Both the position numbers and the translations under genes were made by a program. This document shows, one piece after another, positions 823 to 23,674 of a stretch of 27,709 nucleotides of DNA. Below the pieces are notes generated by a model that saw nothing but the letters and a program-made list of their open reading frames with translations, was not told where the DNA came from and did not search any database. The number at the start of each line of letters is the position of its first letter. Position 1 is the stretch's first letter. The stretch is from Folioceros fuciformis (taxonomy: Eukaryota). The stretch is from positions 403,821-431,529 of the forward strand of contig JBNGIO010006255.1 of the NCBI GenBank assembly GCA_049999805.1, written 5' to 3'.

Positions 823-2874
823 ATGCTGGGTGCAGTGGAAATGCATTGGGCCGTGACGGCAGAGACCGTCAGTAGACTGTGTCAGGAAGGGCACGTCGGA
901 GAGGCTGTTGAGGCTCTGGGATGTCTGGTACACGCAGAGTGTGAGGCTTCTAAATCTCTCTTTTATGAAGTCATAAAAGGATGTGGGAAGGAGCTGTCTC
1001 TGGGTCGCCGTGTTCATGCTCTTGCACTGTGCAAGGGGTATGATTCGGATACGTTCTTGTGCAATCACATCCTGCGGATGTATGCTTCCCATGCCAGGTT
1101 GGAGGAAGCTATGGATGTGTTCAATATGGTTGCCAAACCAGATGCCTTCACATGGTCGGCTATCATCTCAGCTCATGTGAAGCACGGGCAAGATGTGCGT
1201 GCCATACAATTGTATCATGGAATGCGCGAGTCGGGGGTGAAGCCAGATTGCCATGTCTTTGTGGCAGCGCTTCAGGCTTGTTCGAGGGGAGGAGACTTGA
1301 AATCTGGGCAGCAGGTGCATGCGGATGTGTTGGCTAGTGGTGTAAAGCCTAACGCATTCGTTTCTAGTGGCTTGGTGGACATGTATGCTAAATGTGGCAG
1401 CCTGGAAGAAGCGCAAAGAGTGTTTGATGGGCTGCCCCAGAAAGATTTAGTGACTTGGAGTGCCATGATAGCAGGATACTCCCAGCAGGGCATGGGACAG
1501 GAGGCCCTTCATTTGTACAGGACCATGGAAGACGAGGGCATCGTTGAAATAGATTATGTAACGTTTTTGTGCCTCTTACAGGCATGTGCAAGTGTCGGCA
1601 CCCTGGCTTTGGAGAAGGGCAGGCAGCTTCATGGACAGATCAAAGAACGAGGACTTCAAGCTGACGTTTTTGTGGCCAGCAGTTTGGTCAACATGTACGC
1701 AAAGTGTGGCAGCCTAGAGGACGCTAGGGTCGTATTCGACGGACTTGGTGAGAAAAATGTGGTAACGTGGAATACCATGATAGCTGGGTACTCTCAGCAG
1801 GGCATGGGGGAGGATGCCGTTCTTGTGTTCAGGGCCATGCAAGAAGAAAGCATTGTTGCACCCAATGGCGTCACATTTGCAGGCCTCCTTCAGGCATGTG
1901 CAAGTCTGTCCTGTTTGGATCTGGGACAGCAAGTTCATGCACAAGTTAAAGAACAAGGGCTTCATGTCGATTTGCTTGTAGCCGGCAGTTTGATCAACAT
2001 GTACGGAAAGTGCGGGTGCATGGATTATGCGCAGCAGGTCTTCGAGGAGGTGCTCAATAGAGACGTGTCCACTTGGAATGCACTAATTGCTGGATACACC
2101 CGACAAGGAGACAGCGAAGAGGTCTTCCAACTGGTCCACAGAATGAAACAGGATGGCATACAGCCAGACGGCATAACCTTCCTGAGCTTGCTTACAGTAT
2201 GCAGCCATACAGGGCTAGTGGGCAAGGGGCGAGAATACTTCCAGGCTATGAGCAGACTCGGCACCATCACCCCCACGGCAGACCATTACACGTGCATGGT
2301 GGATCTCCTGGGCCGTGCAGGACACCTTGATGAGGCACTACATCTGGCAAGGACAATGCCTATGCGGCCCAATACCTCAGTGTGGCACACCCTGTTGAGT
2401 GCTTGTCGAAAGTGGGGAAATGTGGACGTGGGACATCATGCTTTTGATGAAGCTGTGAGGCTAGACGAGAAAGATGCCGCAGCTTATGTGTTGATGTCAA
2501 ACATATACACAGACGCCCAGATGTGGGAAGAGGCACAGGAGATGCAGGCCAGGAGACTAAGAATCGGGGCATGGAAGGAGCCAGGGCAGAGCTGGTGGAT
2601 AGACATGGACGGACTTGAGCATTGTTTCCTGGTGGGGAACGCCAAGCATAATCCCGGAAGTGAACTGAAGCTGGAGCGCATTCTTCACAAGAGGACGAAG
2701 GAACCGCATGTTGCAAAAACGAACTCGGATATGCCTCGTGATGGATGGCCCACTGTGAGTGTGAAAAATTTGCGGTTCTCCGTTCTTTGTCGAAGTGCCC
2801 CATTACACGCAGCTTTTGTAGAGAGGCGAACTCGCATGCACTGCGGTGTGCCCGTACACGGCGCCTGCATTTGA
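823..2874 (+). CDS. PLS-class PPR protein (copy 1), E1-E2 + WW-type PG box, degenerate DYW-like tail
   Basis: ORF 724-2874 opens at TTG; first in-frame ATG is 823, next is 841. Repeating S (LVDMYAKCGSLEEA), P (VVTWxAMIAGYSQQG) and L (VTFxCLLQACA) motifs, then P2-L2-S2 (ITFLSLLTVCSHTGLV, DHYTCMVDLLGRAG), E1/E2 (AAYVLMSNIY) and KEPGQSWWIDMDG. Start codon uncertain. Confidence 0.9.
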   Translation: MLGAVEMHWAVTAETVSRLCQEGHVGEAVEALGCLVHAECEASKSLFYEVIKGCGKELSLGRRVHALALCKGYDSDTFLCNHILRMYASHARLEEAMDVFNMVAKPDAFTWSAIISAHVKHGQDVRAIQLYHGMRESGVKPDCHVFVAALQACSRGGDLKSGQQVHADVLASGVKPNAFVSSGLVDMYAKCGSLEEAQRVFDGLPQKDLVTWSAMIAGYSQQGMGQEALHLYRTMEDEGIVEIDYVTFLCLLQACASVGTLALEKGRQLHGQIKERGLQADVFVASSLVNMYAKCGSLEDARVVFDGLGEKNVVTWNTMIAGYSQQGMGEDAVLVFRAMQEESIVAPNGVTFAGLLQACASLSCLDLGQQVHAQVKEQGLHVDLLVAGSLINMYGKCGCMDYAQQVFEEVLNRDVSTWNALIAGYTRQGDSEEVFQLVHRMKQDGIQPDGITFLSLLTVCSHTGLVGKGREYFQAMSRLGTITPTADHYTCMVDLLGRAGHLDEALHLARTMPMRPNTSVWHTLLSACRKWGNVDVGHHAFDEAVRLDEKDAAAYVLMSNIYTDAQMWEEAQEMQARRLRIGAWKEPGQSWWIDMDGLEHCFLVGNAKHNPGSELKLERILHKRTKEPHVAKTNSDMPRDGWPTVSVKNLRFSVLCRSAPLHAAFVERRTRMHCGVPVHGACI

Positions 2875-3274
2875 CGACTTTAAAGCTCATCCAGATCCAC
2901 GCATTCTTCCCAGAGAATCCCAGAGCTCTTCCTCGTCACGTATATACGTACATCGCACCGAAAGACATTCCTGTATCCCAACAACAGCTCCAGATGTCAA
3001 CCTTTGCACTTGAACGAACCACATGTTAGACGACCAACCTACATGGTCACGGAAAACCTGGCACCTGCAGACCGGCCGTCAAGAAGGCAAGTGGAGCCTG
3101 GTGGATAATCGTGACCATGATCAAGGCCAATCGTGGACGAGCTTATGATAAACGATCGCTAATTGTGTCCTTGACTATGACAAGCTCTTGATTAGTGGCG
3201 CTGCCCGATGGTTTTGTGCGTCACGCTGGTTGGCTGTGCCGGCAGCCATAATCTCAGTGCTGTGATCCTGAGGC

Positions 3275-6200
3275 ATGGATGTCTGGACCTTTGCTGTTGA
3301 CTCCCTCAAACCGCAACAGGAAACACTGGGGAGACCGTTTGTATGCACCCTGCAGGGTGGTAGCTTGAGTTTTGTAGGAAGTTGTCCCGTTCACGTGAAT
3401 TGGAGGTGTCTAGTGGAACCCAGCAGATGCTGCACCTTGGTAAGAAAGCCAAGCTGTGTAACAGTATGTCGGGCTACTGTGGAAATGCAGGTGGGTGGGT
3501 GGACTACATTGAACCGGAGCGTGCCGGATGGCGAACCTGGCAAGGTTGCAGGGAGTGGAAAGGGCGTCACCGTCAAAACTGTGAACAGATTGTGTCAGAG
3601 GGGAGAGCTTGCTCAGGCCATCGAGGCTGTAGGAGTGCTGGTGCTGACAGACTGTCGTGTTACCAAATTTGTGTTTTACACCATCGTGAGGCAATGTGTG
3701 GCTGCTAAGGATCTGTGTTTGGGTCGCCGTGTTCATGCTCTCGCGGTGGAGAAGGGGTATGACTCAGATGCGTTCTTGGGCAATCACATCCTGCGGATGT
3801 ATATTTCTCATACTAAGTTGCAAGAGGCTATGGATGTGCTCAGTATGATAGCCAGACCAGATGCTTTCACGTGGTCTGCTGTGATTTCTGGGCATGTTAA
3901 GCACGGGGAAGATAAACAGGCCATAGAACTGTACAGGGGGATGCGTGGCTCGAGTGTGGAGCCAGATGGACATGTGTTTGTGGCAGCCCTTCAGGCTTGT
4001 GCAAGGGGAGGAGATCTGAAGTCTGGGCAGCAGGTTCATGCTGATGTGCTGGCTAGTGGCGTGAAGCATGATTTGTTTGTGTGGAACTCCTTGGTGGACA
4101 TGTATGCAAAATGTGGCAGCTTGGAAGAAGCTCAGAGATTGTTTGACGGACTTGGTGAAAAGGATGTGGTGACATGGAATGCTTTGATAGCCGGATACGC
4201 CAAGCAGGGCATGGGGCAGGAAGCCCTTCACCTGTACAGGGCCATGGAAGAGGAAGGCATAATCGCACCAAATTCTGTGACATTTGTGTGCCTCCTGCAG
4301 GCTTGTGCAAGCGTGGGCGCATCAGCTTTGGAGGAGGGGAAACAACTTCATGCAAAAATTAAAGACCAAGGGCTTCAGGCTGACGTCGTTGTAGGTGGGA
4401 GTCTGGTAAACATGTATGCAAAATGTGTCAGCATCGATGATGCTCGGTACGTCTTTGATCGACTTGATGTAAAAAATGTAGTGACTTGGAGCTCCATGAT
4501 AGCAGGGTATTCACAGCAGGGCATGGGGCAAGAAGCCCTTCGCCTTTACAGGGCTATGCAAGAGGAGGGCCTGGCTGCGCCAGATTCTGTCACATTTGGG
4601 TCCCTCCTCCGGGCTTGTGCAAGTGTGGGCACGACGGCTTTGGAGAAGGGGAAGCAGCTTCATGCAGAAATTAGACAATGCGGGCTCGAGGATAACGGGT
4701 TTGTAGCTAGCAGTTTGGTGAACATGTATGCAAAGTGCGGAGGTATAGAGGTTGCCCGTGGCGTGTTTGACAGTCTTCGCCAAAAAAACGTGGTGACTTG
4801 GAGCGCCATGGTAGCAGGATATTCCCAACAAGGCATGGGGGAGGAAGCCCTTCGTGTCTACGAGGCCATGCAAGAAGAAGGCATTGTTGCACCTAATTCT
4901 GTGACATTTGTTTGCCTCCTGCAGGCATGTTCAAGTGTGGGGACCTCTGCTCTGGAGAAGGGGAGGCAGCTTCATGCACAAATTAGGGGACTAGAACTGG
5001 AGGCCGATGTGTTTGTAGCCAGCAGTCTGGTACACATGTATGCAAAATGCGGCAGCTTAGAAGATGCTGAGAGAGTATTTGAGGGACTTGGTGAAAAGAA
5101 TGTTGTGACATGGAGTTCCATGATAGCAGGATATTCCCAGCAGGGTATGGGGCTGAAGGCCCTTCGCCTCCACACAGAAATGCAACAAGAAGGCATGGCT
5201 GCACCTGATTCTGTGACGTTTGCGTGCCTTCTGCAGGCATGTGCAAGTATAGGCACCCCGGCCTTGGAGAAAGGGAGACAGCTTCACGCAGAGATCAGAG
5301 AACAAGCGATCGAGGCTGATTTGTTTGTAGCCAACAGCTTGGTAACCATGTACGCAAAATGCGGCAGCCTAGAGGAAGCGCGGGAGGTATTTGACGCATT
5401 AGTTCAAAAGGATGTTGTGACATGGAATGCAATGATAGCAGGATATTCCCAGCAGGGAATGGGGCTTGGCGCTCTTGAGCTGTTTCGGACAATGCAGGAA
5501 GAAGGCATTGTTGAACCCAATTGTGTGACGTTTGTGTGCCTTCTTCAGGCATGCGCTAGCGTAGCAGCTTTACCTCAAGGGCGGCAACTTCATGTACAGA
5601 TCAAAGAACAAAACCTCCACGCTGATTTGCTTGTAGCTGGCAATTTGATAAATATGTATGGGAAGTGTGGCAGCATGCTTGATGCGCGGCAGGTGTTTCA
5701 GGCATTGCCAAAAAGAGATGTCTTCACATGGAGTGCACTCATCGCCGGATACACCCGTCAAGGAGACAGTGAAGAGGTGTTTGGCCTGCTTCGCAAAATG
5801 GAAAAGGATGGCATACAGCCAGACAGCATCACATTCCTCAGTGTACTAACAGTGTGCAGTCACACGGGTCTCGTGAACAAGGGCCGGCAATACTTTGAGG
5901 ACATGAGCAAGCACTATGGCATCACTCCCACGGCGGATCACTATACATGCATGGTGGATCTTCTAGGTCGTTCTGGACAACTGCAGGAGGCACTGGCTCT
6001 GATACAGACAATGTCTGTACCGCCTGATGCTGCTCTTTGGCGGACTCTTTTGGGTGCCTGTCAAAAATGGAGCGATGTGACTGTTGGACTGTATGCTTTC
6101 AATGAAGCTGTCAAGCTAGACGAGAAAGATTCCGCAGCGTATGTGTTGATGTCCAACGTATACACCAGTGCCCAGATGTGGGAGCAAGCGCGGGAGATGC

Positions 6201-6301
6201 AGTCTCGGAGAAAAACTGTTGGAGCGTGGAAGCAGCCCGGCCAGACCTGGTGGACAGACATGAATGGACAGGTGCACAGATTTTCAGTTGCGGATCTTTG
6301 A
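3275..6301 (+). CDS. PLS-class PPR protein (copy 2), E1-E2 + WW-type PG box, truncated before DYW catalytic region
   Basis: 1008-aa ORF with ~95-aa N-terminal extension (possible organelle targeting peptide), seven S motifs before P2-L2-S2 at ~312-nt period, ending KQPGQTWWTDMNGQVHRFSVADL*. Confidence 0.93.
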   Translation: MDVWTFAVDSLKPQQETLGRPFVCTLQGGSLSFVGSCPVHVNWRCLVEPSRCCTLVRKPSCVTVCRATVEMQVGGWTTLNRSVPDGEPGKVAGSGKGVTVKTVNRLCQRGELAQAIEAVGVLVLTDCRVTKFVFYTIVRQCVAAKDLCLGRRVHALAVEKGYDSDAFLGNHILRMYISHTKLQEAMDVLSMIARPDAFTWSAVISGHVKHGEDKQAIELYRGMRGSSVEPDGHVFVAALQACARGGDLKSGQQVHADVLASGVKHDLFVWNSLVDMYAKCGSLEEAQRLFDGLGEKDVVTWNALIAGYAKQGMGQEALHLYRAMEEEGIIAPNSVTFVCLLQACASVGASALEEGKQLHAKIKDQGLQADVVVGGSLVNMYAKCVSIDDARYVFDRLDVKNVVTWSSMIAGYSQQGMGQEALRLYRAMQEEGLAAPDSVTFGSLLRACASVGTTALEKGKQLHAEIRQCGLEDNGFVASSLVNMYAKCGGIEVARGVFDSLRQKNVVTWSAMVAGYSQQGMGEEALRVYEAMQEEGIVAPNSVTFVCLLQACSSVGTSALEKGRQLHAQIRGLELEADVFVASSLVHMYAKCGSLEDAERVFEGLGEKNVVTWSSMIAGYSQQGMGLKALRLHTEMQQEGMAAPDSVTFACLLQACASIGTPALEKGRQLHAEIREQAIEADLFVANSLVTMYAKCGSLEEAREVFDALVQKDVVTWNAMIAGYSQQGMGLGALELFRTMQEEGIVEPNCVTFVCLLQACASVAALPQGRQLHVQIKEQNLHADLLVAGNLINMYGKCGSMLDARQVFQALPKRDVFTWSALIAGYTRQGDSEEVFGLLRKMEKDGIQPDSITFLSVLTVCSHTGLVNKGRQYFEDMSKHYGITPTADHYTCMVDLLGRSGQLQEALALIQTMSVPPDAALWRTLLGACQKWSDVTVGLYAFNEAVKLDEKDSAAYVLMSNVYTSAQMWEQAREMQSRRKTVGAWKQPGQTWWTDMNGQVHRFSVADL

Positions 6302-6986
6302 TATAAAAGAACTTGATTCAAAATCTGGCAAGAGCAGCATTCGAGTGACATCCTCAGCCCTCCGACTGAGAGACAGATGATCGTTTGCGATGATAGTCAC
6401 AAAGGTGTACATTTAGAATCTCAGACTTGGAAGAACGCGATCGACAACTTGTCAGCCTCAGCAGCGGTAAGATTTGCAGTCTCGCGATTCTTGCCAAATT
6501 GATCGAATCACATAATCGTCGTAGGGAGCTCATAGATATGGTGAATTTCTCATACTTGGGGTTCTTGCAAGCAAGGACTGCTTGTAGTACGCCAATGCTG
6601 CCTAGCATGCATTTGTGGCTGAGTATACCCTCTGCGTGCGGGAAGCATGCCAGGATGACTTTGGGACGGCAAGCATTCGATCTGTGACAGAAGAGCCATG
6701 AGAACTTGCAGCTTTCGTGGTCACGTTCAACATATATGCCCAAGCTTGCGGTTGGGGATCTGCAAAGAACATGGAGGAGCGGAGTCACGAAACAGTTGCG
6801 TAGAGGGTGCTTGGCCACGGCTCGATCGAGCATGAGCAGGGATTGAGAACTTTCGATCCATGAAGCAGTGTTCCATGGATAGCTGGAAGAGCAGAGATGC
6901 ATCTGTATCCATCTTTACAAGAGTCCAGGTAGTGGCATGGTGGTCCGTTTCTCATTTTGGAAGTAGCAACTAGAGTTTTGATGGGA

Positions 6987-9410: not shown

Positions 9411-9814
9411 ATCTCAGCTCGACTGGACTTCCCCTGAGATATGCCTGCAGCAGTACAGACATTGCCTGCATTTGACAGGAGTCTCAAAACCCATCATCAG
9501 ATGCGCAGATTATGTTGGGCTAAGTCTGTGGTTGGTCCCAGCACACTTACAAGCTCTTGTGAATCATATCAACGGTATGTAGTTCAGACAGTTCGTGTTC
9601 CTGTGAGCGATGGGGTGTTCTAGCAACAGCTCCGGCTGGGAACATCCCAATTCAAGGAGCCAATCGCGGGCAGACAACGAAGCTCCCAGATGCAGGATTG
9701 CCGAGAGAAGTGCACCTCGCGCAACAGGATATCTGGCAGCAGACCGGCCTTGCAGGGCTACCCGTTGCCAATTGGGTCTCTGGCTGGACAAATTCCACAA
9801 GCCAGTTTGGGTGG

Positions 9815-12778
9815 ATGTTCAGCTGGCAGCTGTGGATACGGAGAGGGGCGGTAGTGCCCCGGCATACAACTGGAGCATGCCGGATGATCGTGACCGTCTC
9901 AGAGCGTCCAGGATTCGAGACGAGAGTGCGGGCTGAAATAGTGGACGGACTGTGTCAGCAGGGGAGGCTGAAGGACGCCGTCGAGGCTCTCGGAGTCCTA
10001 GTGCATGCAGCCTGTGATATTCCCAGATCTCTGTTTTATGCTGTCCTCAAAAAGTGTGCGGCGGAGAAGGACCTGTGTCTGGGCCGTCGTGTCCATGCTC
10101 TCTCAGTGAAGAAGGGGTATGAGTCCGACACTTTCTTGTGCAACCACATCCTTCGAATGTATGCTTCGGATGCCAGGCTGCAAGAGGCTATGGATGTGTT
10201 CACCATGGTTGTCAATCCTGATGCATTCACGTGGTCTGCCATAATTTCTGCTCATGATAAGCATGGGCAAGGTAAGCAGGCCATCCGTCTGTATCACATT
10301 ATGCGCAGGTCGAGTTTGAAGCCAAATGGCCATGTGTTTGTAGCAGCCCTGCGGGCTTGTGCAAGGGGAGGAGACTTGGTTTCTGGACAACAGGTGCATG
10401 CTGATGTGTTAGCTAGTGGTATAGAGCCGAATCTGTTTGTTTTGAATGGTTTGGTGTACATGTATGCCAAATGTGGCAACTTAGAAGAGGCTCAAAGAGT
10501 GTTCGATGGACTTTGTAAAAAAGATGTAGTGACATGGAGCGCTATGATAGCTGGGTACTCCCAGCAGGGGATGGGACGCGAAGCACTTCATCTTTACTGT
10601 GCCATGCAAGACGAAGGTGTGGTGGTACCCAACTCTGTGACATTTGTTTGCCTCCTGCAGGCATGTGCAAGTCTGGGCACGCCAGCTTTGGAGAAGGGGA
10701 AGCAGATTCATGCACGAATAAGACAACAAGGCCTTGAGGCTGACTTGTTTCTAGGAGGGAGTCTAGTAAGCATGTATGTGAAGTGTAGTAGCCTTGAAGA
10801 TGCTCGCTGCGTCTTTGACAGCCTTGGGCCAAAAAATGTGGTTACGTGGACTGCAATGATAGCAGGGTACTCCCAGAAGGGCATGGGGCACGAAGCTCTT
10901 CGGCTTTACAGGGCTATGCAAGAGGATGGCACGGCTCTAGCCGATGCTTTGACATTTGTATCTGTCTTGCAGGCATGCGCAAGTGTAGGAACCTCAGCTT
11001 TAGAGAAGGGGAAGCAGATTCATGTAGAAATTAATGAGCAAGCTCTTCAGGCTAATGTGTTTGTAGCCAACTCCTTGGTAAACATGTATGCAAAGTGTGG
11101 CAGCCTTGCAGATGCTCGGGGTGTGTTCGACAGGCTAGTTCAGAAAAATATTGTGACGTGGAGTGCCATGATTGCTGGATATTCCCAGCAGGGAATGGGG
11201 CAAGAAGCTCTTCGTCTGTACAAAACTATGCAGGAAGGTGGCATGGCTGCACCTGACGCAGTGACATTTCTATCCCTCCTGCAGGCATGTGCCAGCGTGG
11301 GCACTCTAGCGTTGGAGAAGGGGAAGCAGCTTCATGCAGAAATTAGAGAACAAGGCCTTGAGGCTGACGTGTTTGTGGGTAACAGCTTGGTAGACATGTA
11401 TGCAAAGTGTGGCAGCCTAGAGGATGCTCGGGGTGTGTTTGATGGACTTGATCAAAAGAATGTGGTGACCTGGAGCGCGATGATTGCAGGATATTCCCAG
11501 CAGGGCATGGGGCAGGAAGCTCTTCAGGTCTTCAGGGCTATGCAAGAAGAAGGCATGGCAGCTCCCAATTCTGTGACATTTGTATGCCTCTTGCAGGCGT
11601 GTGCAAGTGTAGGCCCCTCCGCTTTGGAGAAGGGGAAACAGCTCCATGCGCAGATCAGAGAAAGAGGACTTGATACGGAAGTATTTGTAGCTACCAGTTT
11701 GGTAACCATGTATGCAAAGTGTGGCAGCATAGTGGATGCTCGAGGTGTGTTTGATGGACTGGGTGAAAAAAACGTGGTAACGTGGAGTGCCATGATAGCA
11801 GCGTATGCCCAGCAGGCAATGGGGCAGGATGCCCTTCGCCTTTACGTGACTATGCAAGAAGAAGGCCTCGTTGCACCCAATTTGGTGACATTTTTGTGCC
11901 TGCTTCAAGCATGTGCGAGTGTGGCGGCTTTGCATTTGGGAAGGCAGCTTCATGCACAGATCAAGGAGCAAGGTCTTCATGCTGATGTGCTTTTGGCTGG
12001 TAGTTTGATAAACATGTATGGGAAGTGCGGCAGCATGGTTGATGCACGGCAGGTATTTGAGGCATTATCTGAAAGAGATGTGGTTGTCTGGAATGCACTG
12101 ATTGCAGGATACACCCGTCAAGGAGAAACTGCAGAGGTGTTTGACTTGGTGCTTAGAATGACAGCGGATGGTGTACAGCCAGACTCCGTCACGTTTCTCA
12201 GTGTCCTAACAGTGTGCAGTCATACGGGTCTAGTGAGCGAAGGGCGAGAGTACTTTGAGTCTATGAGCAGAATCTATGGCATCACACCCACGGCGGACCA
12301 CTACACGTGCATGGTGGATCTCCTTGGGCGTGCAGGACAATTGGAAGAGGCTCTAATTGTAGCAAGGACAATGCGTACAGTGCCCACTGCTGCCATCTGG
12401 CACACTTTGTTGGGTGGTTGTAGAAAGTGGAGCAACGTGGTAGTGGGACGCCGTGCTTTTGATGAAGCAGTGAAGCTAGACAAGAAAGATGCGTCAGCCT
12501 ATGTGTTGATGACAAACATATACACTAATGCCCACATGTGGGAGCAGGCAAAGGAGGTCCAGGCCAGGAGAGTACAAATCAGGGCATGGAAGCAGCCAGG
12601 CCAGAGCTGGTGGACAGACCCGGATGGGCTGGTGCATAGCTTCCTGGTTGGGGATAAAGGCATTGAGCGAAGCGGAAGCAGGTGTTTTCCAGATCGAAGA
12701 AATTGCAACATGCGGACTCGTCCATCGGAGGTCTTTCTTGTTGGACAGCAAGAAATTGGCTACCCGTTGTGGATCTAA
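9815..12778 (+). CDS. PLS-class PPR protein (copy 4), E1-E2 + WW-type PG box, frameshifted DYW relic
   Basis: ORF 9698-12778 opens at TTG; first in-frame ATG is 9815. Seven S motifs before P2-L2-S2; ends KQPGQSWWTDPDGLVHSFLVGDKG followed by a non-conserved tail. Start uncertain. Confidence 0.92.
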   Translation: MFSWQLWIRRGAVVPRHTTGACRMIVTVSERPGFETRVRAEIVDGLCQQGRLKDAVEALGVLVHAACDIPRSLFYAVLKKCAAEKDLCLGRRVHALSVKKGYESDTFLCNHILRMYASDARLQEAMDVFTMVVNPDAFTWSAIISAHDKHGQGKQAIRLYHIMRRSSLKPNGHVFVAALRACARGGDLVSGQQVHADVLASGIEPNLFVLNGLVYMYAKCGNLEEAQRVFDGLCKKDVVTWSAMIAGYSQQGMGREALHLYCAMQDEGVVVPNSVTFVCLLQACASLGTPALEKGKQIHARIRQQGLEADLFLGGSLVSMYVKCSSLEDARCVFDSLGPKNVVTWTAMIAGYSQKGMGHEALRLYRAMQEDGTALADALTFVSVLQACASVGTSALEKGKQIHVEINEQALQANVFVANSLVNMYAKCGSLADARGVFDRLVQKNIVTWSAMIAGYSQQGMGQEALRLYKTMQEGGMAAPDAVTFLSLLQACASVGTLALEKGKQLHAEIREQGLEADVFVGNSLVDMYAKCGSLEDARGVFDGLDQKNVVTWSAMIAGYSQQGMGQEALQVFRAMQEEGMAAPNSVTFVCLLQACASVGPSALEKGKQLHAQIRERGLDTEVFVATSLVTMYAKCGSIVDARGVFDGLGEKNVVTWSAMIAAYAQQAMGQDALRLYVTMQEEGLVAPNLVTFLCLLQACASVAALHLGRQLHAQIKEQGLHADVLLAGSLINMYGKCGSMVDARQVFEALSERDVVVWNALIAGYTRQGETAEVFDLVLRMTADGVQPDSVTFLSVLTVCSHTGLVSEGREYFESMSRIYGITPTADHYTCMVDLLGRAGQLEEALIVARTMRTVPTAAIWHTLLGGCRKWSNVVVGRRAFDEAVKLDKKDASAYVLMTNIYTNAHMWEQAKEVQARRVQIRAWKQPGQSWWTDPDGLVHSFLVGDKGIERSGSRCFPDRRNCNMRTRPSEVFLVGQQEIGYPLWI

Positions 12779-12896
12779 CAAAACACCTTACCAGAATGAA
12801 TGTGACATACGAGTATGAATGTGACAAGTTACTATCTGTTGGATTGCCTTGATGTGTCGCATTGTCCGGAACGATAGAGCATCTGCCAAATGATTT

Positions 12897-13178
12897 TCTT
12901 TGAGCATCTGCCAAACTGCCACACTTCGCATACATGTCCACCAAGCAACTGCAGACAAATAAGTCATGCTCGACTCCACTAGCCAACGAATCAGCATGGA
13001 CCTGCTGCCCAGATTGCAAGTCTCCTCCTCTTGCACAAGCCTGAAGGGCTGCTACAAACACATGCCCATCTGGTTTCACGCGTGACGTGCGCATCCTATG
13101 ATAGAGCTGTATGGCTTGCTGATCTTGTCCCTGTCTAACGTGCCCAGAAATTATGGCAGACCATGTGAAGGTATCTGG
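12897..13178 (-). repeat. Inverted partial duplicate of PPR copy 5 (left arm of an inverted repeat; partner 13805-14084)
   Basis: Reverse complement aligns to 13805-14084 with perfect blocks of 77 nt and 88 nt, about a dozen substitutions and one 2-nt indel (hand count, ~95% identity). Encodes PDTFTWSAIISGHVRQGQDQQAIQLYHRMRTSRVKPDGH...MYAKCGSLADAQR. Confidence 0.93.
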
Positions 13179-13327
13179 CCGGCTTGTTTCATCATTCCAT
13201 CATTGTTCCGAATTCTTCTACACTGCGTGCTGGCCGATGTCGTGGTCCTGTCAATGGAGACTGATGCGAGCCGAAGTCTTCCGGATGACCTACAGGTTCC
13301 TCCTCCTGTGCATCGCTTGTGCAAACC

Positions 13328-15670
13328 ATGTCTGTCTGTAGGGGCACAGCTCGTGTAGGAAGAGCATTTACTAATGTGATTCTGAGGAATCAACTACTGG
13401 CAAACAACGAAGCCGCGAGCCGCAGCAAGCAAGCACGTGCGATGTCTGAACTTGCATGTTCTGCAGACGGTAGTCGCCACCAGATGCACAGGCCTGCTGG
13501 ACATGAAACCGACGTAACGGCTAAAACCGTTAGGAAACTATGCCGGCAGGGCAAGCTCGCGGAGGCTGTTGATGCTCTGGCAGTTTTGGTACACACTGGC
13601 TGTGAGATCTTCCAATCCCTCTTTGACACGGTTCTTAAGGAACTTATAGCACAGAAAGATCTGCTGCTAGGTCGCCGTGTTCATGCTCTCACTGTGAAGA
13701 AGGGGTATGAATCGGACAGGTTCCTGTGCAATCACATTCTACGAATGTATGCTTCTCATGCCAGGCTGCAAGAGGCTAAGGATGTGTTCAATGTGATATC
13801 CCAACCAGATACCTTCACATGGTCTGCCATAATTTCTGGGCACGTTAGACAGGGACAAGATCAGCAAGCCATACAGCTCTAAAAGGATGCGCACATCGAG
13901 TGTGAAACCAGATGGGCATGTGTTTGTAGCAGCCCTTCAGGCTTGTGCAAGAGGAGGAGACTTGCAATCTGGGCAGCAGGTCCATGCTGGTTTGCTGGCT
14001 AGAGGAGTCGAGCATGATTTATTTTTCTGCAGGTGCTTGGTGGACATGTATGCGAAGTGTGGCAGTTTGGCCGATGCTCAAAGAGTGTTTGTCGGCCTTA
14101 CTGAAAAAAATGTGGTGATTTGGAACGCAATGATCGCAGGATATTCCCAGCAGGCCATGGGGCAGGAAGCCCTGCAGCTGTACAGGGCTATGGAAGATGA
14201 AGGCACGGTGAGGCCCAATTCTGTTACATTTGTGTGCCTCCTGCAGGCATGTGCGACAATGGGCACCCCGGCTTTGGAGGTAGGTGGGGAGCTTCATGCA
14301 AAAATTAGAGAACAACGGCTTCAAGCTGATGAATTTGTAGCCAGCAGTTTGGTCAACATGTACGCAAAATGTGGCAGTATAGACGAGGCTCGATGCATAT
14401 TTGACGGACTCGCGCAGAGAAACGACGTGACATGGTGTGCCATGATAGCAGGATATTCCCAGCAGGGCATGGGGCAGGAAGCCCTTGACCTCTATGGGGC
14501 TATGCAAGAAGAAGGCATCGTCGCACTTGATTCTGTGACATTTGCGTGCCTGCTGCAGGCCTGTGCAAGTCTAGGCACCCCAGCTTTGGAGATTGGGAAG
14601 CAGCTTCATGCAAAAACTAGAAGAGGAGGACTTGATTCTCATCTGATTGTAGGCAACAGTTTGGTGAACATGTACGCCAAATGTGGGAGCCTAGAGAGTG
14701 CTCATGGCGTGTTTGACACACTCCTTCAAAAAGTGTGACATTCAAAAATCCTTCAAAAATGATGGCATTCCATGTGGTGACATGGAATGCCATCATTGCA
14801 GGACATTCTCACAAGGGCATGGGCTCCCGTGCTCTTCGTCTTTACAGGGCTATGCGAGAAGAAGGTCTTGTTGCCCCCAATTCTGTAACATTTGTGTGCC
14901 TTCTTCAGGCATGTGCAAGCTTGGCAGCGCTGGATATAGGCCGGGAGATTCATGCGCAGATTAAATCTCAAGGACTTCAAGCTGATGCCACGGTGGGTAA
15001 CAGTCTGATAAACATGTATGCAAAGTCGGGCAGCATGGTTGAAGCACAGAAAGTGTTTGACACATTGCCCGAAAGAACTGTTGTCACCTGGAGTGCATTG
15101 ATTGCAGGATACGCCTGTCAAGGAGACAGTCAGTTGGTCTTTGAATTGGTTCTCAAAATGAGGGAGGATGGCATAAAACCAGACGCCATCACATTCCTCA
15201 GCATACTAACAGTATGCAGTCACACGGGTCTAGTGAGGCAAGGACGAGAGTACTTTGATGCCATGAGCCGAGACTATGGCATCAGTCCCACGGTGGACCA
15301 CTACACAAGCGTCGTGGATCTCTTGGGTCGTTCAGGACAACTGGACAAAGCACTAGTTGTGGCTAGGACAATGCCGGGAGTCCCTGATGCTGCAGTATGG
15401 CATACTCTTTTGGGTGCTTGTCGGAAGTGGAGCAACATAGAGGTGGGGCGGCATGCTTTCAACCAAGCTGTGAAGCTAGATAAGAAAGATGCTGCAGCAT
15501 ATGTGATGATGTCGAACATCTACACCGATGCCCAGATGTGGGAGGAGGCACAGGAGATACAAGCGACGAGAAAGAAAATCGGGGCATGGAAACAGCCAGG
15601 CCAGAGCTGGTGGACAGACATGGACGGACTCGTCCATGGTTTCTTCGTTGGTGAAAAAAGTCATCCTTAG
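13328..15670 (+). pseudogene. PLS-class PPR pseudogene (copy 5) broken into three ORFs
   Basis: Three consecutive ORFs (13319-13882, 13887-14738, 14735-15670) reconstruct one PPR gene. Lesion 1: ctc-taa-aagg-atg at 13877-13889 (stop plus 2-nt deletion versus ctc-tat-cat-agg-atg in the inverted copy). Lesion 2: frameshifting insertion at ~14733-14772. Ends KQPGQSWWTDMDGLVHGFFVGEKSHP*(TAG). Confidence 0.88.
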
Positions 15671-15816: not shown

Positions 15817-18267
15817 ATGTTGTACACAACACTCGAGTGCTCGCAAGCATTGCAGCTTCGATCTCTTCGCTCTGGCGAGAAAGGACTGGACGTGGATCAT
15901 CCTAAAGCCAGAGCTCAAAACCATGATGAGCTGATAACAGGCAACAACCCGTCCCCTTCACTTGCTGTATTACTTATGCAGATGGTTCATCCTCTCCCTG
16001 CATCCAACTGGAGCATGTTTGACATTGAGTGTTTCCCTCACAGGCCTTCGCTGTACAAAAGGCACATAACGGCTGATACCGTGACGAAGCTATGTCAGCA
16101 GGGGCATCTTAGTGAAGCTGTTGAGGCTGTGGGAGTTTTGGTACAGACAAACTTGTACGTCTCCAACTCTGTCTTCTACACGGTGCTAAAAGAGTGTGCG
16201 GCTAAGAAGAATCTGCCTCTGGGTCGCCGTGTTCATGCTTTTACAGTGAAGAAGGGATGTGAGTCGAACACGTTTGTGTGCAATCACATCCTGCGTCTAT
16301 ACAGTGCTCATGGCAGATTGCAGGAGGCTATGGATTCATTCGCTTTAGTTGCCAATCCAGATAGGTTCACGTGGTCTGTGATTATCTCAGCTCATGTTAA
16401 ACAGGGGAATGACAAGCAGGCTATAGAGCTGTATCAACGGAGCTGCAGGTCGAAAATGAGGCCAGATGAACGTGTTTTTGTGGCAGTGCTTCAGGCTTGT
16501 GCAAAGGGACGAGACTTGAAATCGGGACAGCAGGTGCATGCGGATGTATTGGCTGCTGGCATCGAGCCTGGTCTTTTTGTCTATAGTTCCTTGGTGGATA
16601 TGTATGCTAAGTGTGGAAGGTTGGAGGAGGCTCAGAGAATCTTTGACGGCCTGCCGCGCAAGGATTTGGTGACCTGGAGTGCTCTGATCGCTGGGTATTG
16701 CCAGCAGGGCTTGGGGCAGGAAGCCCTTCGTCTCCACAGTGCCATGCAAGAGGAAGGCACCCTTGTGCTCGACGGTGTAACATTTGTGTGTCTCCTGCAG
16801 GCATGTGCTAATGTGGGCACCTCAGCGCTGGAGAAGGGGAGGCAGTTTCATGCGCAAATTACAGAACGAGGATTTCAGAGTGACCTCTTTGTGGCCAGCA
16901 GTTTAGTAAACATGTATGTGAAGTGTGGCAGTTTAGAGGATGCGCGGGGTGTCTTCGACGGGCTTAGTCAGAAGAATGTGGTAACATGGAGCGCCATGAT
17001 AGCTGGATATTCCCAGCAGGGACTGGTGGAGGAATCCTTTGGTCTATACAGAGCTATGCGGGAAGAAGGGACCTCACCGAATTCCGTGACATTTGTGTGT
17101 CTCCTTCAGGCGTGTGCAAGTTTGGGCACCCTGGCGTTGGTGAAGGGAAAGGAGCTTCACGCAGAAATCAGAAGAAGATGTCTTCACACAGATGGATTTG
17201 TAGGCAACTCTTTGGTAAACATGTATGCAAAGTGCGGCAGCTTAGAGAACGCTGAGGTAGTGTTTGAAGAACTTCCTGTGAAAGACGTGGTGACTTGGAA
17301 TGCCATGATAGCAGCTTATTCCCAGCAGGGCGCAGTGCAGGCAGCCTTTCGTCTTTACAAGGCTATGCAAGAAGAAGGCATGGCTGAACCCGATTCTGTA
17401 ACATTTGTGTGTCTGCTGCAGGCATGTGCAAATGTGGCAGCTTTGCATGTGGGAAGGCAGCTTCATGCACAGAGTAGAGAACAAGGACTTCAAGCTGACG
17501 TGCTTGTATCTGGCAGTTTGATTAACATGTACTCAAAGTGCGGTAGCATGGTTGATGCACAGCAGGTGTTTGAGGAATTGCCTGAACCAGACATCTTCGC
17601 CTGGAGTTCACTAATCGCAGGGTACACCCAGCAAGGAGACACTGAAGTGGTGCTTGAATTGTTTGACAGAATGCGAGACTATGGCTTACAGCCGGCTGGC
17701 ATCACATTCCTGAGTGTACTGACAGCATGCAGTCATACAGGGCTAGTGAGAAAAGGGCGAGAGTACTTCGAGATAATGCGAGGACGCTATGGTATTAGTC
17801 CCACTGTGGAACACTACACATGTATGGTGGATCTTCTTGGCCGTGCCGGTCTATTAGATGAGGCACTTGAGTTGATAGAGACAATGGCTGTACAGCCTGA
17901 TGCTGCAGTTTGGCACACTCTATTGGGTGCCTGTCGAAAGTGGGGCAGCGTGGCTGTAGGAGTCCATGCTTTCGAGGAGGCAGTGAAACTAGATCAGGAT
18001 GATCCCGCTGCATATACACTGATGTCCAACATATACAGGGGTGCCCAGATGTGGGAGAAGGCACATGAGATACAGGCAAGGCGACTGAGAATCGGGGCAT
18101 GGAAGCAGCCAGGCCGGACTTGGTGGACTGACCTGGACGGAGTGGTGCATACTTTTTCGGTCGGGGATAAGTTTCCAGGGATTGAAGCACGTTGTATCCA
18201 GGCTCTGCACCCGAGCCTGTATTTAACGATGGAAGGCAAGGTTTGTCATGTGGGCTGCCTTAGATAA
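15817..18267 (+). CDS. PLS-class PPR protein (copy 6), E1-E2 + WW-type PG box, DYW relic after stop
   Basis: 816-aa ORF, five S motifs before P2-L2-S2, ends KQPGRTWWTDLDGVVHTFSVGDKFP.... True start may be a downstream ATG (~15976-16015). Confidence 0.92.
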   Translation: MLYTTLECSQALQLRSLRSGEKGLDVDHPKARAQNHDELITGNNPSPSLAVLLMQMVHPLPASNWSMFDIECFPHRPSLYKRHITADTVTKLCQQGHLSEAVEAVGVLVQTNLYVSNSVFYTVLKECAAKKNLPLGRRVHAFTVKKGCESNTFVCNHILRLYSAHGRLQEAMDSFALVANPDRFTWSVIISAHVKQGNDKQAIELYQRSCRSKMRPDERVFVAVLQACAKGRDLKSGQQVHADVLAAGIEPGLFVYSSLVDMYAKCGRLEEAQRIFDGLPRKDLVTWSALIAGYCQQGLGQEALRLHSAMQEEGTLVLDGVTFVCLLQACANVGTSALEKGRQFHAQITERGFQSDLFVASSLVNMYVKCGSLEDARGVFDGLSQKNVVTWSAMIAGYSQQGLVEESFGLYRAMREEGTSPNSVTFVCLLQACASLGTLALVKGKELHAEIRRRCLHTDGFVGNSLVNMYAKCGSLENAEVVFEELPVKDVVTWNAMIAAYSQQGAVQAAFRLYKAMQEEGMAEPDSVTFVCLLQACANVAALHVGRQLHAQSREQGLQADVLVSGSLINMYSKCGSMVDAQQVFEELPEPDIFAWSSLIAGYTQQGDTEVVLELFDRMRDYGLQPAGITFLSVLTACSHTGLVRKGREYFEIMRGRYGISPTVEHYTCMVDLLGRAGLLDEALELIETMAVQPDAAVWHTLLGACRKWGSVAVGVHAFEEAVKLDQDDPAAYTLMSNIYRGAQMWEKAHEIQARRLRIGAWKQPGRTWWTDLDGVVHTFSVGDKFPGIEARCIQALHPSLYLTMEGKVCHVGCLR

Positions 18268-18807
18268 TCCCATTGCCATTTCGAGAAACCTGGGTTTGCA
18301 TCATACAAGAACGGAAACTGCTGCGTTGAGAATTACCATGACATCCGCATTAGATGGGCTTGCTCAGGCATTTCAGCAGAAAGGAGATGGATACCGCCTC
18401 ACGAGCTTGAATAGCAACATCACCTCAAGAAAAGCCGAATTGACCTGCAGTTCCCGTCCTTTTCCAGCCAAAACATTTGTCTCCTTCTGGGCAGCTTGAT
18501 TGTCGTCCAACACTTCCAACTCGAACTAACAGGAGAGGAGATACATCTAATTCCATGTCAGACCGAAGGAAAGGTACTTTCGTAACAGCTCCTTCCAATT
18601 TCCACGTTTCTCCAAATGCTGAAAAGTACGGATCACGACAGAATGTTGGGCAGGTGCGGTGGAAGAGGTTCTTCGTCTGCAAGGATCTGCAAAATGGCTA
18701 CTTGCCAAAGCCACCCTGATGGAGTTGCTGGGACTCAAAAGTCTTATGAGTTCAAGCTACGTTTCCGCCATACTCTGGACGACCCTCCTCCTTGCCACCT
18801 CATGGGC

Positions 18808-20544: not shown

Positions 20545-23211
20545 ATGTTCCGCTGGAGGAGCATCCTCCAGCGAGGGTGGTCGCATAGAGGGCTTCAGGA
20601 AGGCCATGCTTTGCGGAACGGGGAGTTCCAAGGGGTCCTCTGCTTCACCAAGTACCATGAGCCAGCTTCAGTGGATCCGCAGCTGACTGCTCCTGACATG
20701 GAGAAAGGTCGTGGTTCCCGAACTTTCAGCTCGAGCGTGCGGGTCCCGGTCGATTGTGAGCACCCGGGGGACGTCAGTGCCGAAACCGTGAGAAAGCTAT
20801 GTCAGCATGGGGAACTTGGTGAGGCTGTTGAGTGTTTGGGAGTCCTAGTTCGCACAGACTTTCATGTGTCGAAACATCTCTTTTGTACGGTGTTAAGAGA
20901 ATGTGTGGCTAGGAGGGATCTGCCATTGGGTCGCCGTGTTCATGCTCTTACATTGAGGAAGGGCTATGAGTCGGATACGTTCTTGTGCAACCACATCCTC
21001 CGCATGTATTCTTCTTATGGCTTATTGCAAGAAGCTGTTGATGCGTTCTCTCTGATGAGCAAGCCTGATGCGTTCACGTGGTCTGCCATAATTGCAGCGC
21101 ATGTTAAACATGGACAAGATAAGCAGGCAGTACAGTTGTATCAGCAGATGAGGAGGTCAAGTGTGAAGCCAGACGGGCATGTGGTTGTAGCAGCACTCCA
21201 GGCGTGTGTGAGGGGAGGAGATTTGAAATCTGGTCAGCAGGTGCACGCTGATATGTTGGCTAGTGAATTTGAGCAAGATTTGTTTGTCACTAGTTGCTTG
21301 GTGGACATGTATGCCAAGTGTGGCAGCTTGGAGGACGCTCGACGTGTATTTGATGCGCTCCCTGGGAAGGATGTTGTGACATGGACTGCCATGATAGCAG
21401 CATATTCTCAGCGCGGCATGGGCCAGCAAGCTCTTGCTCTCTACAGGACAATGGAAGCAGGAGGCATGGTGGTACCCAACTCTGTTACATTTTTGTCTAT
21501 CCTGCAGGCATGTGCGAGTGTGGGCCCGTCAGCTTTGGAGAAGGGGAAGCAGCTTCATGCAGAAATTAGAGAAAGAGGACTGCAGGCTGATGTGTTTGTA
21601 GTCAGCAGTTTGGTAGACATGTATGCAAAGTGTGGCAGTGTAGAGGATGCTCGGGACTTGTTTGATGGACTAGATCATAAAACTGTGGTGACATGGAGTG
21701 CCATGATAGCAGGATACACCCAGCAGGGCATGGGACTGGAAGCCCTCCATCTCTATAGGGCTATGCAAGAAGAAGGCATGACTGCACCAAATGCTGTGAC
21801 TTTTGTGTGTCTTCTGCAGGCGTGTTCAATCGTGGGTACATCAGCTTTGGAGACCGGAAGGCAGCTTCATGCACACGTCAGGGAGCAAGGGTTTCACAGC
21901 GATCTGTTGGTAGCTACCAGCTTGGTTAACATGTATGCAAAGTGTGGTAGCATGGCAGAAGCTCAGAGAGTGTTTGATGGACTTGGTCAGAAGGATGTGG
22001 TGACATGGACTTGTCTGATAGCAGGGTATTGCCAGGGGGGGATGGGCCAGGAAGCCCTTCGTCTCTACAGTGCCATGCAAGAAGAGGATGTGGCTGTACC
22101 CGATTCGGTGACTTTTGTTTGCCTTCTGCAGGCATGTGCGAGTTTGGGTATCCAGTCTTTGGAAAACGGGAGGCAGCTGCATACACAGATTAGAGAAAGA
22201 GGACTTGAGGCTGATACGTTTGTAGCCAACAGCCTGGTAAACATGTATGCCAAGTGCGGCAGCGTAGAGGATGCTCGGGGCGTGTTTGATGGACTTGCTG
22301 AGAAGGATGTGGTGACCTGGAATGCTTTGATAGCGGGCTATTCCCAGCACGGCATGGGGCAGGAAGCCCTTTGCCTTTACAGGGCTATGCAAGAAGAAGG
22401 TGTGGCTGCACCTGATAGCGTGACATTTGTTTGCCTGTTACAGGCAAGTGCGCATGTCGCAGCTTTGCATCTGGGACAAGAGCTTCACATGCAGATTAAA
22501 GAGCAAGAGCTTGAAGATGATGTGCTTGTAGCTGGCAGTTTGATAAGCATGTATGGAAAATGTGGTAGCATGGCTCATGCACGGGAGGTGTTTGAGGCGT
22601 TGTCCCATAGAGATGATGTTGTTTGGAATGCTCTGATTGCAGGCTACTCTCGGGAAGGCGACTGTGAAGCCGTACTTGACTTGTTTCACAAAATGAGAGA
22701 GACTGGTGTACATCCAGCTGGCCTCACATTCCTCCATGTCCTAACTGTCTGCAGTCATACGGGCCTAGTGAAGGTGGGGCGAGAATACTTCGACGCTATG
22801 AGCAACACCTACGGCATCAGTCCCACATTAGAGCACTACACATGTATGGTGGATCTCCTGGGCCGTGCAGGTCATCTGGATGAGGCTCTAACGTTGATAA
22901 AGGCAATGCCTACCCCTCCGGATGCTGCAGTTTGGCGCACTCTTTTGGGTGCTTGTCAGAAGTGGAGCAACGTGGAAGTGGGCCAGCAAGCTTTTCACGG
23001 AGCAGTCTCGATCGACTCGCATGATCCCTCAGCTTATGTGTTGATGTCGAACATCTATACCAGTTCCCAAATGTGGGAGCAGGCACTGGAGATGCATTCG
23101 TGGAGACAAGGAAATAGGGCATGGAAGCAGCCAGGCCAGAGCTGGTGGACAGATATGGACGGACTGGTGCATAGTTTTCTGGTTGGGGATACCGTGGCAC
23201 GTTCGACATGA
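20545..23211 (+). CDS. PLS-class PPR protein (copy 7), E1-E2 + WW-type PG box, truncated before DYW catalytic region
   Basis: 888-aa ORF with Arg-rich N-terminus (MFRWRSILQRGWSHRGL..., mitochondrial-presequence-like by composition), six S motifs before P2-L2-S2, ends KQPGQSWWTDMDGLVHSFLVGDTVARST*. Confidence 0.93.
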   Translation: MFRWRSILQRGWSHRGLQEGHALRNGEFQGVLCFTKYHEPASVDPQLTAPDMEKGRGSRTFSSSVRVPVDCEHPGDVSAETVRKLCQHGELGEAVECLGVLVRTDFHVSKHLFCTVLRECVARRDLPLGRRVHALTLRKGYESDTFLCNHILRMYSSYGLLQEAVDAFSLMSKPDAFTWSAIIAAHVKHGQDKQAVQLYQQMRRSSVKPDGHVVVAALQACVRGGDLKSGQQVHADMLASEFEQDLFVTSCLVDMYAKCGSLEDARRVFDALPGKDVVTWTAMIAAYSQRGMGQQALALYRTMEAGGMVVPNSVTFLSILQACASVGPSALEKGKQLHAEIRERGLQADVFVVSSLVDMYAKCGSVEDARDLFDGLDHKTVVTWSAMIAGYTQQGMGLEALHLYRAMQEEGMTAPNAVTFVCLLQACSIVGTSALETGRQLHAHVREQGFHSDLLVATSLVNMYAKCGSMAEAQRVFDGLGQKDVVTWTCLIAGYCQGGMGQEALRLYSAMQEEDVAVPDSVTFVCLLQACASLGIQSLENGRQLHTQIRERGLEADTFVANSLVNMYAKCGSVEDARGVFDGLAEKDVVTWNALIAGYSQHGMGQEALCLYRAMQEEGVAAPDSVTFVCLLQASAHVAALHLGQELHMQIKEQELEDDVLVAGSLISMYGKCGSMAHAREVFEALSHRDDVVWNALIAGYSREGDCEAVLDLFHKMRETGVHPAGLTFLHVLTVCSHTGLVKVGREYFDAMSNTYGISPTLEHYTCMVDLLGRAGHLDEALTLIKAMPTPPDAAVWRTLLGACQKWSNVEVGQQAFHGAVSIDSHDPSAYVLMSNIYTSSQMWEQALEMHSWRQGNRAWKQPGQSWWTDMDGLVHSFLVGDTVARST

Positions 23212-23674
23212 AGCAAGGTGAGAGGATTGCCTGACTATGAAGACTCTTCAATTCTGGTCACCTTGCTGGTATTCCATGCTGAGATAAACACGTGAGGGCT
23301 ATCTCATCCAGGTGATCGTGGTCACTTTGCCTTCATGTGTAAGGAGTTTCCTCATCTGGTCGAGACTTAGTGCACCTCAAGGGTTTCAACAACCCATACC
23401 CCGCGTTTCAGAGTACCTGGGATCGTTTTCCTTCGCAGTGCTGTCTCACGAGACGGCCAAAGAAATGACATACACTGGCACTCACGTGAAATAGTCTGCT
23501 CAACTGCGATGATGGCATAAGTCTTGTGGCGAGTGAGACAATGTGTGGGATTTCCAGGTGCCCGTCGATGGCGTAGGGCGGGTCACATCGTCTCTGGACT
23601 CCGGGCAGTCCACCGCTCCTATTTTTCACTCCCAATCTGTCGACCACCTCTACCCTCCGACAGGCTCTGGCGGG

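What the first reader, a model, noticed from the sequence alone, without database searches (positions are those of the whole stretch)
823..23521. Tandem array of WW-type PLS-PPR editing factors that all keep the PG box but have lost the DYW deaminase, with different breakpoints
Seen: all seven paralogs conserve E1-E2 and KxPGx(S/T)WWxDxxGxxHxFxV(G/A), then diverge abruptly, with different stops and unrelated-looking tails; DYW-like fragments survive downstream in several. Established: PLS-E-DYW proteins are organellar RNA-editing factors, the HxE..CxxC region is catalytic, a 'WW' DYW variant is described from hornworts, and angiosperm E+ proteins lacking the catalytic part recruit DYW donors in trans (DYW1/DYW2). 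Inference: this cluster may be a lineage-specific, parallel origin of 'E+'-like specificity factors. Selection would keep the PG box as an interface while catalysis comes from an unidentified trans-acting DYW:WW partner.
Basis: partly seen in the sequence, partly recalled or inferred. Interest (0 to 1): 0.78.

Follow-up and report, generated by a model that had tools for sequence, protein, structure and literature searches.

The report
Hornwort RNA editors split in two
The seven genes belong to a family of over 300 RNA-binding proteins in this hornwort-type genome that keep only the first hairpin of their editing enzyme, and the same genome encodes three stand-alone enzyme halves lacking exactly that hairpin, which likely pair with them to edit organelle RNA.

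Summary
Core observation confirmed: seven PLS-PPR-E1-E2 genes end shortly after a WW-type PG box, and no HxE..CxxC exists in the window. Corrections: one copy is frameshifted twice; the seven are not a local clade; no downstream DYW remnant scores above noise in them. The pattern is genome-wide: 318 WW PG boxes, 0 of 157 sampled with a catalytic motif, PG box under purifying selection (dN/dS about 0.11). No intact DYW:WW was found in the assembly, so the proposed DYW:WW donor is not supported. Instead three PPR-less, PG-box-less DYW genes (C2033, C2365, C1291) keep HSE..CxxC..DYW and the gating helix, the parts the WW proteins lose. C2033 is spliced and conserved in four runs; a C1291 relative occurs in Nothoceros. 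Best reading: a DYW1/CRR4-like split editor used at genome scale. Pairing and editing are inferred, not shown. Hornwort E+ enrichment is in print; I found no report of these donors, but two key papers were unread.

The parts
823..2874 (+). Copy 1: PLS-PPR-E1-E2-PG(WW); PG box at 2581, stop 97 codons later; tail without recognisable DYW
3275..6301 (+). Copy 2: long PLS array, PG box at 6236, stop 21 codons later; 3' end covered unspliced by a same-species contig (6162-7066)
6987..9413 (-). Copy 3 (inverted; stop-to-stop frame, ATG candidates include 9257): PG box at 7061, stop 24 codons later
9563..12778 (+). Copy 4 (stop-to-stop frame, ATG candidates 9815 and 9884): PG box at 12596, stop 60 codons later; its E1-E2-PG part is modelled as helical repeats followed by a two-stranded hairpin
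12897..13178 (-). Inverted duplicate of part of copy 5 (matches 13805-14084; 93-100% complementary); PPR fragment
13289..15670 (+). Copy 5: in three reading frames (breaks near 13880 and 14720-14770), probable pseudogene; PG box at 15596, stop 24 codons later
15976..18267 (+). Copy 6: PG box at 18109, stop 52 codons later; 3' end covered unspliced by a same-species contig (17907-19796)
18808..20094 (-). TRM13 tRNA methyltransferase gene interrupting the cluster; not part of the system
20545..23211 (+). Copy 7: PG box at 23131, stop 26 codons later

Best explanation
These genes encode PLS-PPR proteins that end in the PG-box hairpin and lack the rest of the DYW deaminase, and they likely pick organellar C-to-U editing sites while one of three PPR-less, PG-box-less DYW proteins of the same genome (G000 C2033, C2365, C1291) would supply catalysis in trans. 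Shown: the PPR arrays keep P/L/S spacing and mostly canonical code residues; selection stops at the end of the PG box; the three DYW-only genes keep the gating helix, HSE, CxxC and DYW but not the PG box; C2033 is spliced and conserved. Inferred: the PPR array binds upstream of a cytidine; E2 plus the PG hairpin dock on the donor and complete its sheet and substrate pocket, as described for CRR4 with DYW1; the donors' PDF-like motif may add non-specific nucleic-acid binding. Once donors existed, everything after the PG box in WW genes was free to decay, gene by gene, which would give the different breakpoints.
For: (1) Census by exact patterns: 318 WW PG boxes (control 0), 363 HAE..CxxCH of mostly KP type, and only 9 matches to the HSE-type pattern: 5 full PLS-DYW:PG, 3 PPR-less genes, 1 broken KP; a sixth full PG-type gene has HAE. 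(2) In 157 sampled WW genes: 0 with in-frame HxE..CxxC; 0 stops in 12,090 codons from 60 before the PG proline to +17, then 69 stops in 2,420 codons from +18 to +37. dN/dS over 78 disjoint pairs: PG box 0.11, E2 0.22, E1 0.27. With an anchor upstream of E2, 156 WW genes were intact through the PG box and 3 frameshifted before it. (3) The retained piece is modelled as a two-strand hairpin at +2..+6 and +12..+16; the PG box is the first two strands of the fold (PMC7611903, passages). (4) The donors align to canonical DYW from the gating helix onward and lack the PG box; exactly three such genes score apart; the C2033 model matches DYW structures, DYW1 7W86 Z 10.4, rmsd 2.9, 79 aligned, tied with OTP86. 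(5) C2033 is spliced at both predicted introns in a same-species run and has spliced relatives in runs of three other organisms; all 16 listed differences between L082 2292 and 2580 are third codon positions (40 of 207 differences shown). A C1291 relative is recorded from Nothoceros aenigmaticus. (6) 48 of 59 P/S motifs in six window copies have canonical 5th/last pairs. (7) Precedent: CRR4's E2 and PG box complete DYW1's pocket (PMC11897456, PMC13041630, passages); a designed hornwort DYW:WW is used as a C-to-U editor (PMC12684383, passages).
Against: No editing site was matched to any protein: the assembly gave no psaA/psaB hit and one cox1 fragment with a stop. The assembly is 87 Mb in 7,240 contigs and may miss an intact DYW:WW; pattern searches also miss diverged motifs and intron-split domains. 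The sample was chosen by likeness to an E2-PG query, which inflates PG conservation; the 18 lowest-scoring members still kept it, but that set is small. Synonymous divergence is high (dS about 1), so dN/dS is rough. Organelle targeting of donors and of window proteins was judged by eye only. The donors carry a poorly modelled insertion after the gating helix (residues 42-79, pLDDT under 50) and a changed gating loop, so their activity is untested. C1291's 5' end is off the contig.
Confidence: 0.67

Rival explanations
1. The WW proteins are editing specificity factors, but catalysis comes from full-length proteins: the few PLS-DYW:PG, DYW:KP proteins, or an intact DYW:WW missing from this assembly. 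The three PPR-less DYW genes serve other partners, such as the non-WW E+ class.
For: Six full-length PG-type and about 363 KP-type domains are present. Intact DYW:WW exists in other datasets (P0004, P0005, Selaginella) and in hornwort transcriptomes (PMC12684383, passages). A second DYW-less E+ class with PGxSWIE-like boxes exists in G000. The assembly is fragmented.
Against: Full-length donors have their own PG box, which does not explain why the WW PG box is more constrained than E1/E2 while the gating helix is dispensable (20 of 155 keep it). Only a few non-WW E+ genes turned up beside 156 WW genes. Four searches for intact DYW:WW were negative.
Confidence: 0.17
2. The WW proteins are not editing factors. 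They bind organellar RNA for stability, splicing or translation, and the PG hairpin is kept as a structural cap on E2.
For: No catalytic motif in 157 of 157; no target or editing link was tested here; PLS proteins with non-editing roles are known (own knowledge).
Against: With only six PG-type full-length enzymes found, the large C-to-U editomes reported for hornworts (recalled; PMC7027989 passages link PLS expansion to editing) would lack specificity factors. The lysine before the PG box, whose mutation cuts editing in PPR56 (PMC7611903), is 99% conserved. PG-less DYW genes with intact active sites are conserved.
Confidence: 0.1
3. The genes are decaying pseudogenes, or they splice onto a downstream DYW exon.
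For: Copy 5 is broken; 3 of 159 upstream-anchored WW genes are frameshifted before the PG box; decayed catalytic remnants exist in some members (8 of 154 against 1 control).
Against: 132 of 139 bounded upstream frames are open for 500 aa or more; dN/dS 0.11-0.27; no HxE..CxxC anywhere in the window; same-species contigs cross the stops of copies 2, 3 and 6 without a joint; only 9 HSE-type domains found genome-wide, all accounted for.
Confidence: 0.04

Closest known systems
Arabidopsis CRR4 + DYW1 (PDB 7W86)
   Same: PPR factor ending soon after the PG box, paired with a PPR-less DYW protein that lacks the PG box but keeps HSE..CxxC..DYW (PMC11897456, PMC13041630, passages). The C2033 model matches 7W86 (Z 10.4, rmsd 2.9, 79 aligned; tied with OTP86).
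   Different: DYW1 serves one site with one partner; here three donors would serve over 300 factors. The hornwort donors carry a PDF-like motif (seen in C2033 and C2365), long low-complexity linkers and an insertion after the gating helix, and form their own clade (99/96).
Angiosperm E+ proteins + DYW2 (with NUWA, MORFs)
   Same: Many truncated specificity factors share few donors (PMC11897456, PMC10226603, passages).
   Different: Angiosperm E+ keeps a strictly conserved start of the gating domain and DYW2 has lost it (PMC11897456, PMC11121751). Here the division is reversed: donors keep the helix, and 20 of 155 WW genes, none of the seven, retain it. DYW2 has degenerate PPRs; these donors have none.
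DYW:WW editing factors of hornworts and lycophytes
   Same: Same E1-E2 and WW-type PG box; truncated G000 genes group with WW proteins of other datasets.
   Different: P0004, P0005 and Selaginella proteins have a complete DYW domain; none was found in G000.
Hornwort E+ subgroup (PMC13386178)
   Same: [quoted passage not shown]
   Different: In the passages seen it names no hornwort trans donor and has no mention of PDF or OSB; its supplement could not be read.
OSB proteins (PDF motif)
   Same: Donors carry a roughly 50-residue motif with a Pro-Asp-Phe signature, as described for OSBs (PMC6963530, passages); the detailed consensus I matched is recalled.
   Different: No OB-fold family was hit; the motif is joined to a deaminase.

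Membership tests
PLS-class PPR, E-type | P-L-S triplets of about 35/35-37/31 aa followed by E1-E2 | tested here: met
   Pfam PPR and E_motif; motif spacing in six copies
DYW:WW subgroup | PG box with WW | tested here: met
   7 of 7
DYW:WW subgroup | Complete DYW domain with HxE..CxxC and terminal DYW | tested here: not met
   None in the window's six frames; 0 of 157 sampled
E+ subgroup (broad: truncated DYW retaining the PG box) | PG box kept, catalytic part absent | tested here: met
E+ subgroup (angiosperm sense, DYW2 clients) | [quoted passage not shown] | tested here: not met
   None of the seven; 20 of 155 in the genome sample
CRR4/DYW1-type split editor | A PPR-less DYW protein lacking the PG box with intact HxE..CxxC in the same genome | tested here: met
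   C2033, C2365, C1291
CRR4/DYW1-type split editor | Physical interaction of factor and donor | not testable with these tools
   Needs a binding or co-purification assay
CRR4/DYW1-type split editor | Editing of a defined site depends on both proteins | not testable with these tools
   No organellar genome or editome in hand
CRR4/DYW1-type split editor | Both proteins in the same organelle | not tested
   N-termini of C2033 and C2365 look like transit peptides by eye only
Angiosperm DYW1/DYW2-like clade (orthology of the donors) | Donors group with DYW1/DYW2-like sequences | tested here: inconclusive
   Separate clades in the best tree, union not rejected, p-AU 0.2, 91 columns; my DYW1/2-like labels rest on sequence likeness and one source name
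OSB family | OB-fold-like domain plus PDF motif | tested here: inconclusive
   PDF-like motif seen; no Pfam OB-fold hit in the pieces scanned, but this domain is poorly conserved

The most novel reading that the evidence does not exclude
Hornworts independently evolved a fully split C-to-U editosome: hundreds of WW-type PPR proteins donate only the PG-box hairpin, and three PDF-motif DYW proteins, conserved at least as far as Nothoceros, supply nearly all C-to-U catalysis in both organelles, with the split at a different point from angiosperm E+/DYW2.
Probability: 0.45. Interest if true: 0.85.

Novelty: new variant of a known kind. Interest (0 to 1): 0.7.

Why it matters
Hornworts are among the heaviest RNA editors and are reported to be enriched in E+ proteins, yet in the papers I could read the catalytic partner is not named. 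Three concrete, expressed or conserved candidates make the question directly testable in E. coli and by knock-out. If right, trans-donor editing is not a seed-plant speciality, and the complementary losses (factors keep the hairpin, donors keep the gating helix) map the natural split point of the DYW domain. That bears on how PG-box complementation activates the enzyme and on the design of split, low-background RNA editors.

Tried and rejected
Complex prediction of copy 4 E1-E2-PG with the C2033 DYW part gave no answer (score 0.22, mark 0.34; alignments were not used); it is no evidence either way. No RNA holder is on record for the window; run X1 is treated as RNA only because its C2033 contig is spliced. 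A PPR-code test against editing sites could not be run: no psaA/psaB hit, one broken cox1 fragment. The 1,065 'candidates' are not a copy number; I use the exact-pattern count of 318 (141 of 157 sampled members fit that pattern, so about 350 in all). Searches for intact DYW:WW: 3 pattern matches, none WW; best protein hit 61%, a PG-type gene; 13 matches against 8 control for a looser pattern, one starting in a real WW box but with a stop and an out-of-frame CxxC. dN/dS after the PG box could not be estimated (pN 0.66, pS 0.72, unalignable), and that script stopped before the window-only figures. A broader DYW profile failed to build, so only the five-sequence WW profile counts. Independent origin of the donors was not established (p-AU 0.2). 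The scan's earlier findings returned nothing. Gerke et al. 2020 is not held; Gutmann et al. 2020 and Toma-Fukai et al. 2023 were not looked up and are known only through citing papers.

Full report
Observation. The window (G000:C6255:403821-431529) holds seven WW-type PG boxes at 2581, 6236, 7061(-), 12596, 15596, 18109 and 23131. Pfam finds PPR and E motifs, never DYW_deaminase, in the 10 ORFs scanned; one ORF is TRM13. Stops fall 21 to 97 codons after the PG proline. Copy 5 is in three frames and partly duplicated in inverted form. Six copies have regular P/L/S spacing, and 48 of 59 P/S motifs carry canonical code pairs. The claimed downstream DYW fragments are not detectable: best score 2.4 bits against a profile of five intact DYW:WW domains.

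Organism. Hundreds of DYW:KP domains, some ending in DRH- or GRP-like triplets, point to a hornwort, since these variants are described from hornworts (PMC9478123, passages). This is an inference about the plant group only.

The pattern is genome-wide. An exact pattern finds 318 WW PG boxes, control 0. I fetched regions around 118 hits plus clusters and neighbours and recovered 157 distinct WW genes after dropping one at a contig end and those under the score filters. None has an in-frame HxE..CxxC. There are 0 stops in 12,090 codons through PG position +17, then about 0.03 per codon (69 in 2,420 codons from +18 to +37). Column conservation is 0.97-1.0 at K-2, P0, G1, W5, D7, G10, H13 and F15, and falls to 0.51 or less from +20. 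Nei-Gojobori dN/dS over 78 disjoint pairs is 0.27 (E1, also used to choose pairs), 0.22 (E2) and 0.11 (PG box); beyond it the sequences are saturated. Because the sample was drawn by an E2-PG query, I re-anchored upstream: of 186 anchors, 156 were WW genes intact through the PG box, 3 WW genes frameshifted before it, 12 KP-labelled, 11 other and 4 at edges; the 18 lowest-scoring members kept the same columns. Remnants show descent from full DYW:WW: 24 of 154 score 8 bits or more against 1 control, 8 against 1 reaching past the HxE position. The gating helix survives in 20 of 155, scattered over the tree (16 changes at least; weakly supported FastTree). The window copies do not group together, so this is a cluster of old paralogs and not a local origin.

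Expression of window genes. No run is on record as RNA. Run X1 matches the window without mismatches in eight listed pieces; 6162-7066 crosses the stops of copies 2 and 3, and 17907-19796 crosses the stop of copy 6, without a joint. X1 does contain spliced contigs.

No intact DYW:WW was found. Two pattern searches and a protein search with an intact WW domain gave only PG- and KP-type genes or chance matches. HAE-type domains number 363. The HSE-type pattern gives 9: five full PLS-DYW:PG genes, one broken KP gene and three genes without PPRs. The assembly is fragmented, so absence is not proven.

Candidate donors. C2033 (three exons, 399 aa; L082 3675-2265, minus strand), C2365 (four exons predicted, 461 aa) and C1291 (5' end off the contig) encode a low-complexity linker, a helix, a conserved (R/K)YPRH segment and HSE..CxxCH..DYW. 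Pfam finds only DYW_deaminase over its cut-off. A search with the donor-specific segment separates exactly these three. Aligned to canonical domains they begin at the gating helix and lack the PG box. The WW proteins keep a predicted two-strand hairpin ending at +16, the part described as the first two strands of the fold (PMC7611903, passages). The halves are thus complementary. The C2033 model has the helix, a poorly modelled insertion and a deaminase core that matches DYW1 and OTP86 about equally (Z 10.4 and 10.1). C2033 and C2365 carry a PDF-like motif after a possible transit peptide; degraded copies of C1291's 5' part suggest it has one too. X1 splices C2033 at both predicted introns with no mismatch. 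Runs of three other organisms hold spliced relatives, and all 16 listed differences in the deaminase-side stretch are third positions (40 of 207 shown). Loose ends in X2 and X4 match the spliced C2365 junction, checked by eye. Among 1.84 billion representatives two clear relatives stood out, P0121 and P0124; P0124 clusters with a Nothoceros aenigmaticus transcript. The six donors form a clade (99/96) outside the WW clade (100/96) and apart from DYW1/DYW2-like sequences, but union with the latter is not rejected (p-AU 0.2). Three rows without a matched motif were left out of that tree.

Mechanism. Inferred: the PPR array binds upstream of a cytidine, E2 and the PG hairpin complete the donor's pocket, and the donor's zinc site deaminates, as reviewed for CRR4 and DYW1 (PMC11897456, PMC13041630, passages). 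A designed hornwort DYW:WW is used as a C-to-U editor (PMC12684383, passages), which fits the direction. Unlike angiosperm E+/DYW2, where the factor keeps the gating start (PMC11897456; PMC11121751, passages), here the donor keeps it. Pairing, localisation, targets and activity were not shown.

Novelty. E+ enrichment in hornworts is in print (PMC13386178: passages and section 7; supplement unreadable). Ten full-text searches, read as listings, and passages of PMC10226603, PMC7027989, PMC8075897, PMC9459714, PMC8110955, PMC6963530 and PMC13393729 showed no hornwort PPR-less DYW donor. Gerke et al. 2020 is not held and Gutmann et al. 2020 was not read; either may already describe truncated WW proteins and could mention these genes. 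Verdict: the window is an ordinary sample of a known expansion; the complementary donor family is the new and testable part. New variant of a known kind; interest 0.7.

Noticed in passing
L082:2265-3675 (-); L096:41-1710 (+); L094:1-1710 (+): Three PPR-less, PG-box-less DYW genes (G000 C2033, C2365, C1291), the candidate trans donors; outside the window, central to this report.
   Followed up: yes
L250, L251, L252 (G000 C1036, C5989:10261, C6255:79391): Genes with the donors' PDF-like motif and the same repeated helical motif as C1291 but no DYW seen in the fetched stretch; possible accessory proteins.
   Followed up: partly
L248, L249 (G000 C689, C5784): Degraded, frameshifted copies of the 5' part of the C1291 gene, joining a PDF-like motif to its Gly-rich segment.
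   Followed up: partly
L080, L253, L257, L258; P0125, P0127: The PDF-like motif also sits at the N-terminus of many long PPR frames, DYW:KP among them (150 scored of 276 candidates), of 13 of 132 WW genes by a loose test, and of a Sphagnum PLS-DYW protein.
   Followed up: partly
L121, L087, L169, L173, L213, L102: A second, non-WW class of DYW-less E+ genes with PGxSWIE-like boxes, often keeping the gating helix.
   Followed up: no
L181 (-) and L191 (+): Two WW genes read through in frame into the next PPR gene (next stops 738 and 865 codons after the PG box).
   Followed up: no
L203 (+), L089 (+), L175 (+): WW genes with a full-length but decayed DYW still in frame, catalytic residues lost: intermediate stages of the loss.
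   Followed up: partly
window 12897-13178 and 13805-14084: Recent inverted duplication inside the cluster, next to the broken copy 5.
   Followed up: partly
window 18808-20094 (-): TRM13 gene in one open frame between copies 6 and 7; one intact copy and 11 fragments with stops elsewhere in the genome.
   Followed up: partly
window 23830-24350: Degenerate direct repeats of roughly 60 bases after copy 7, seen by eye, followed by AT-richer repeat-like DNA.
   Followed up: no
L081 (G000 C6303): A full-length PG-type PLS-DYW gene with HAE in place of HSE.
   Followed up: no
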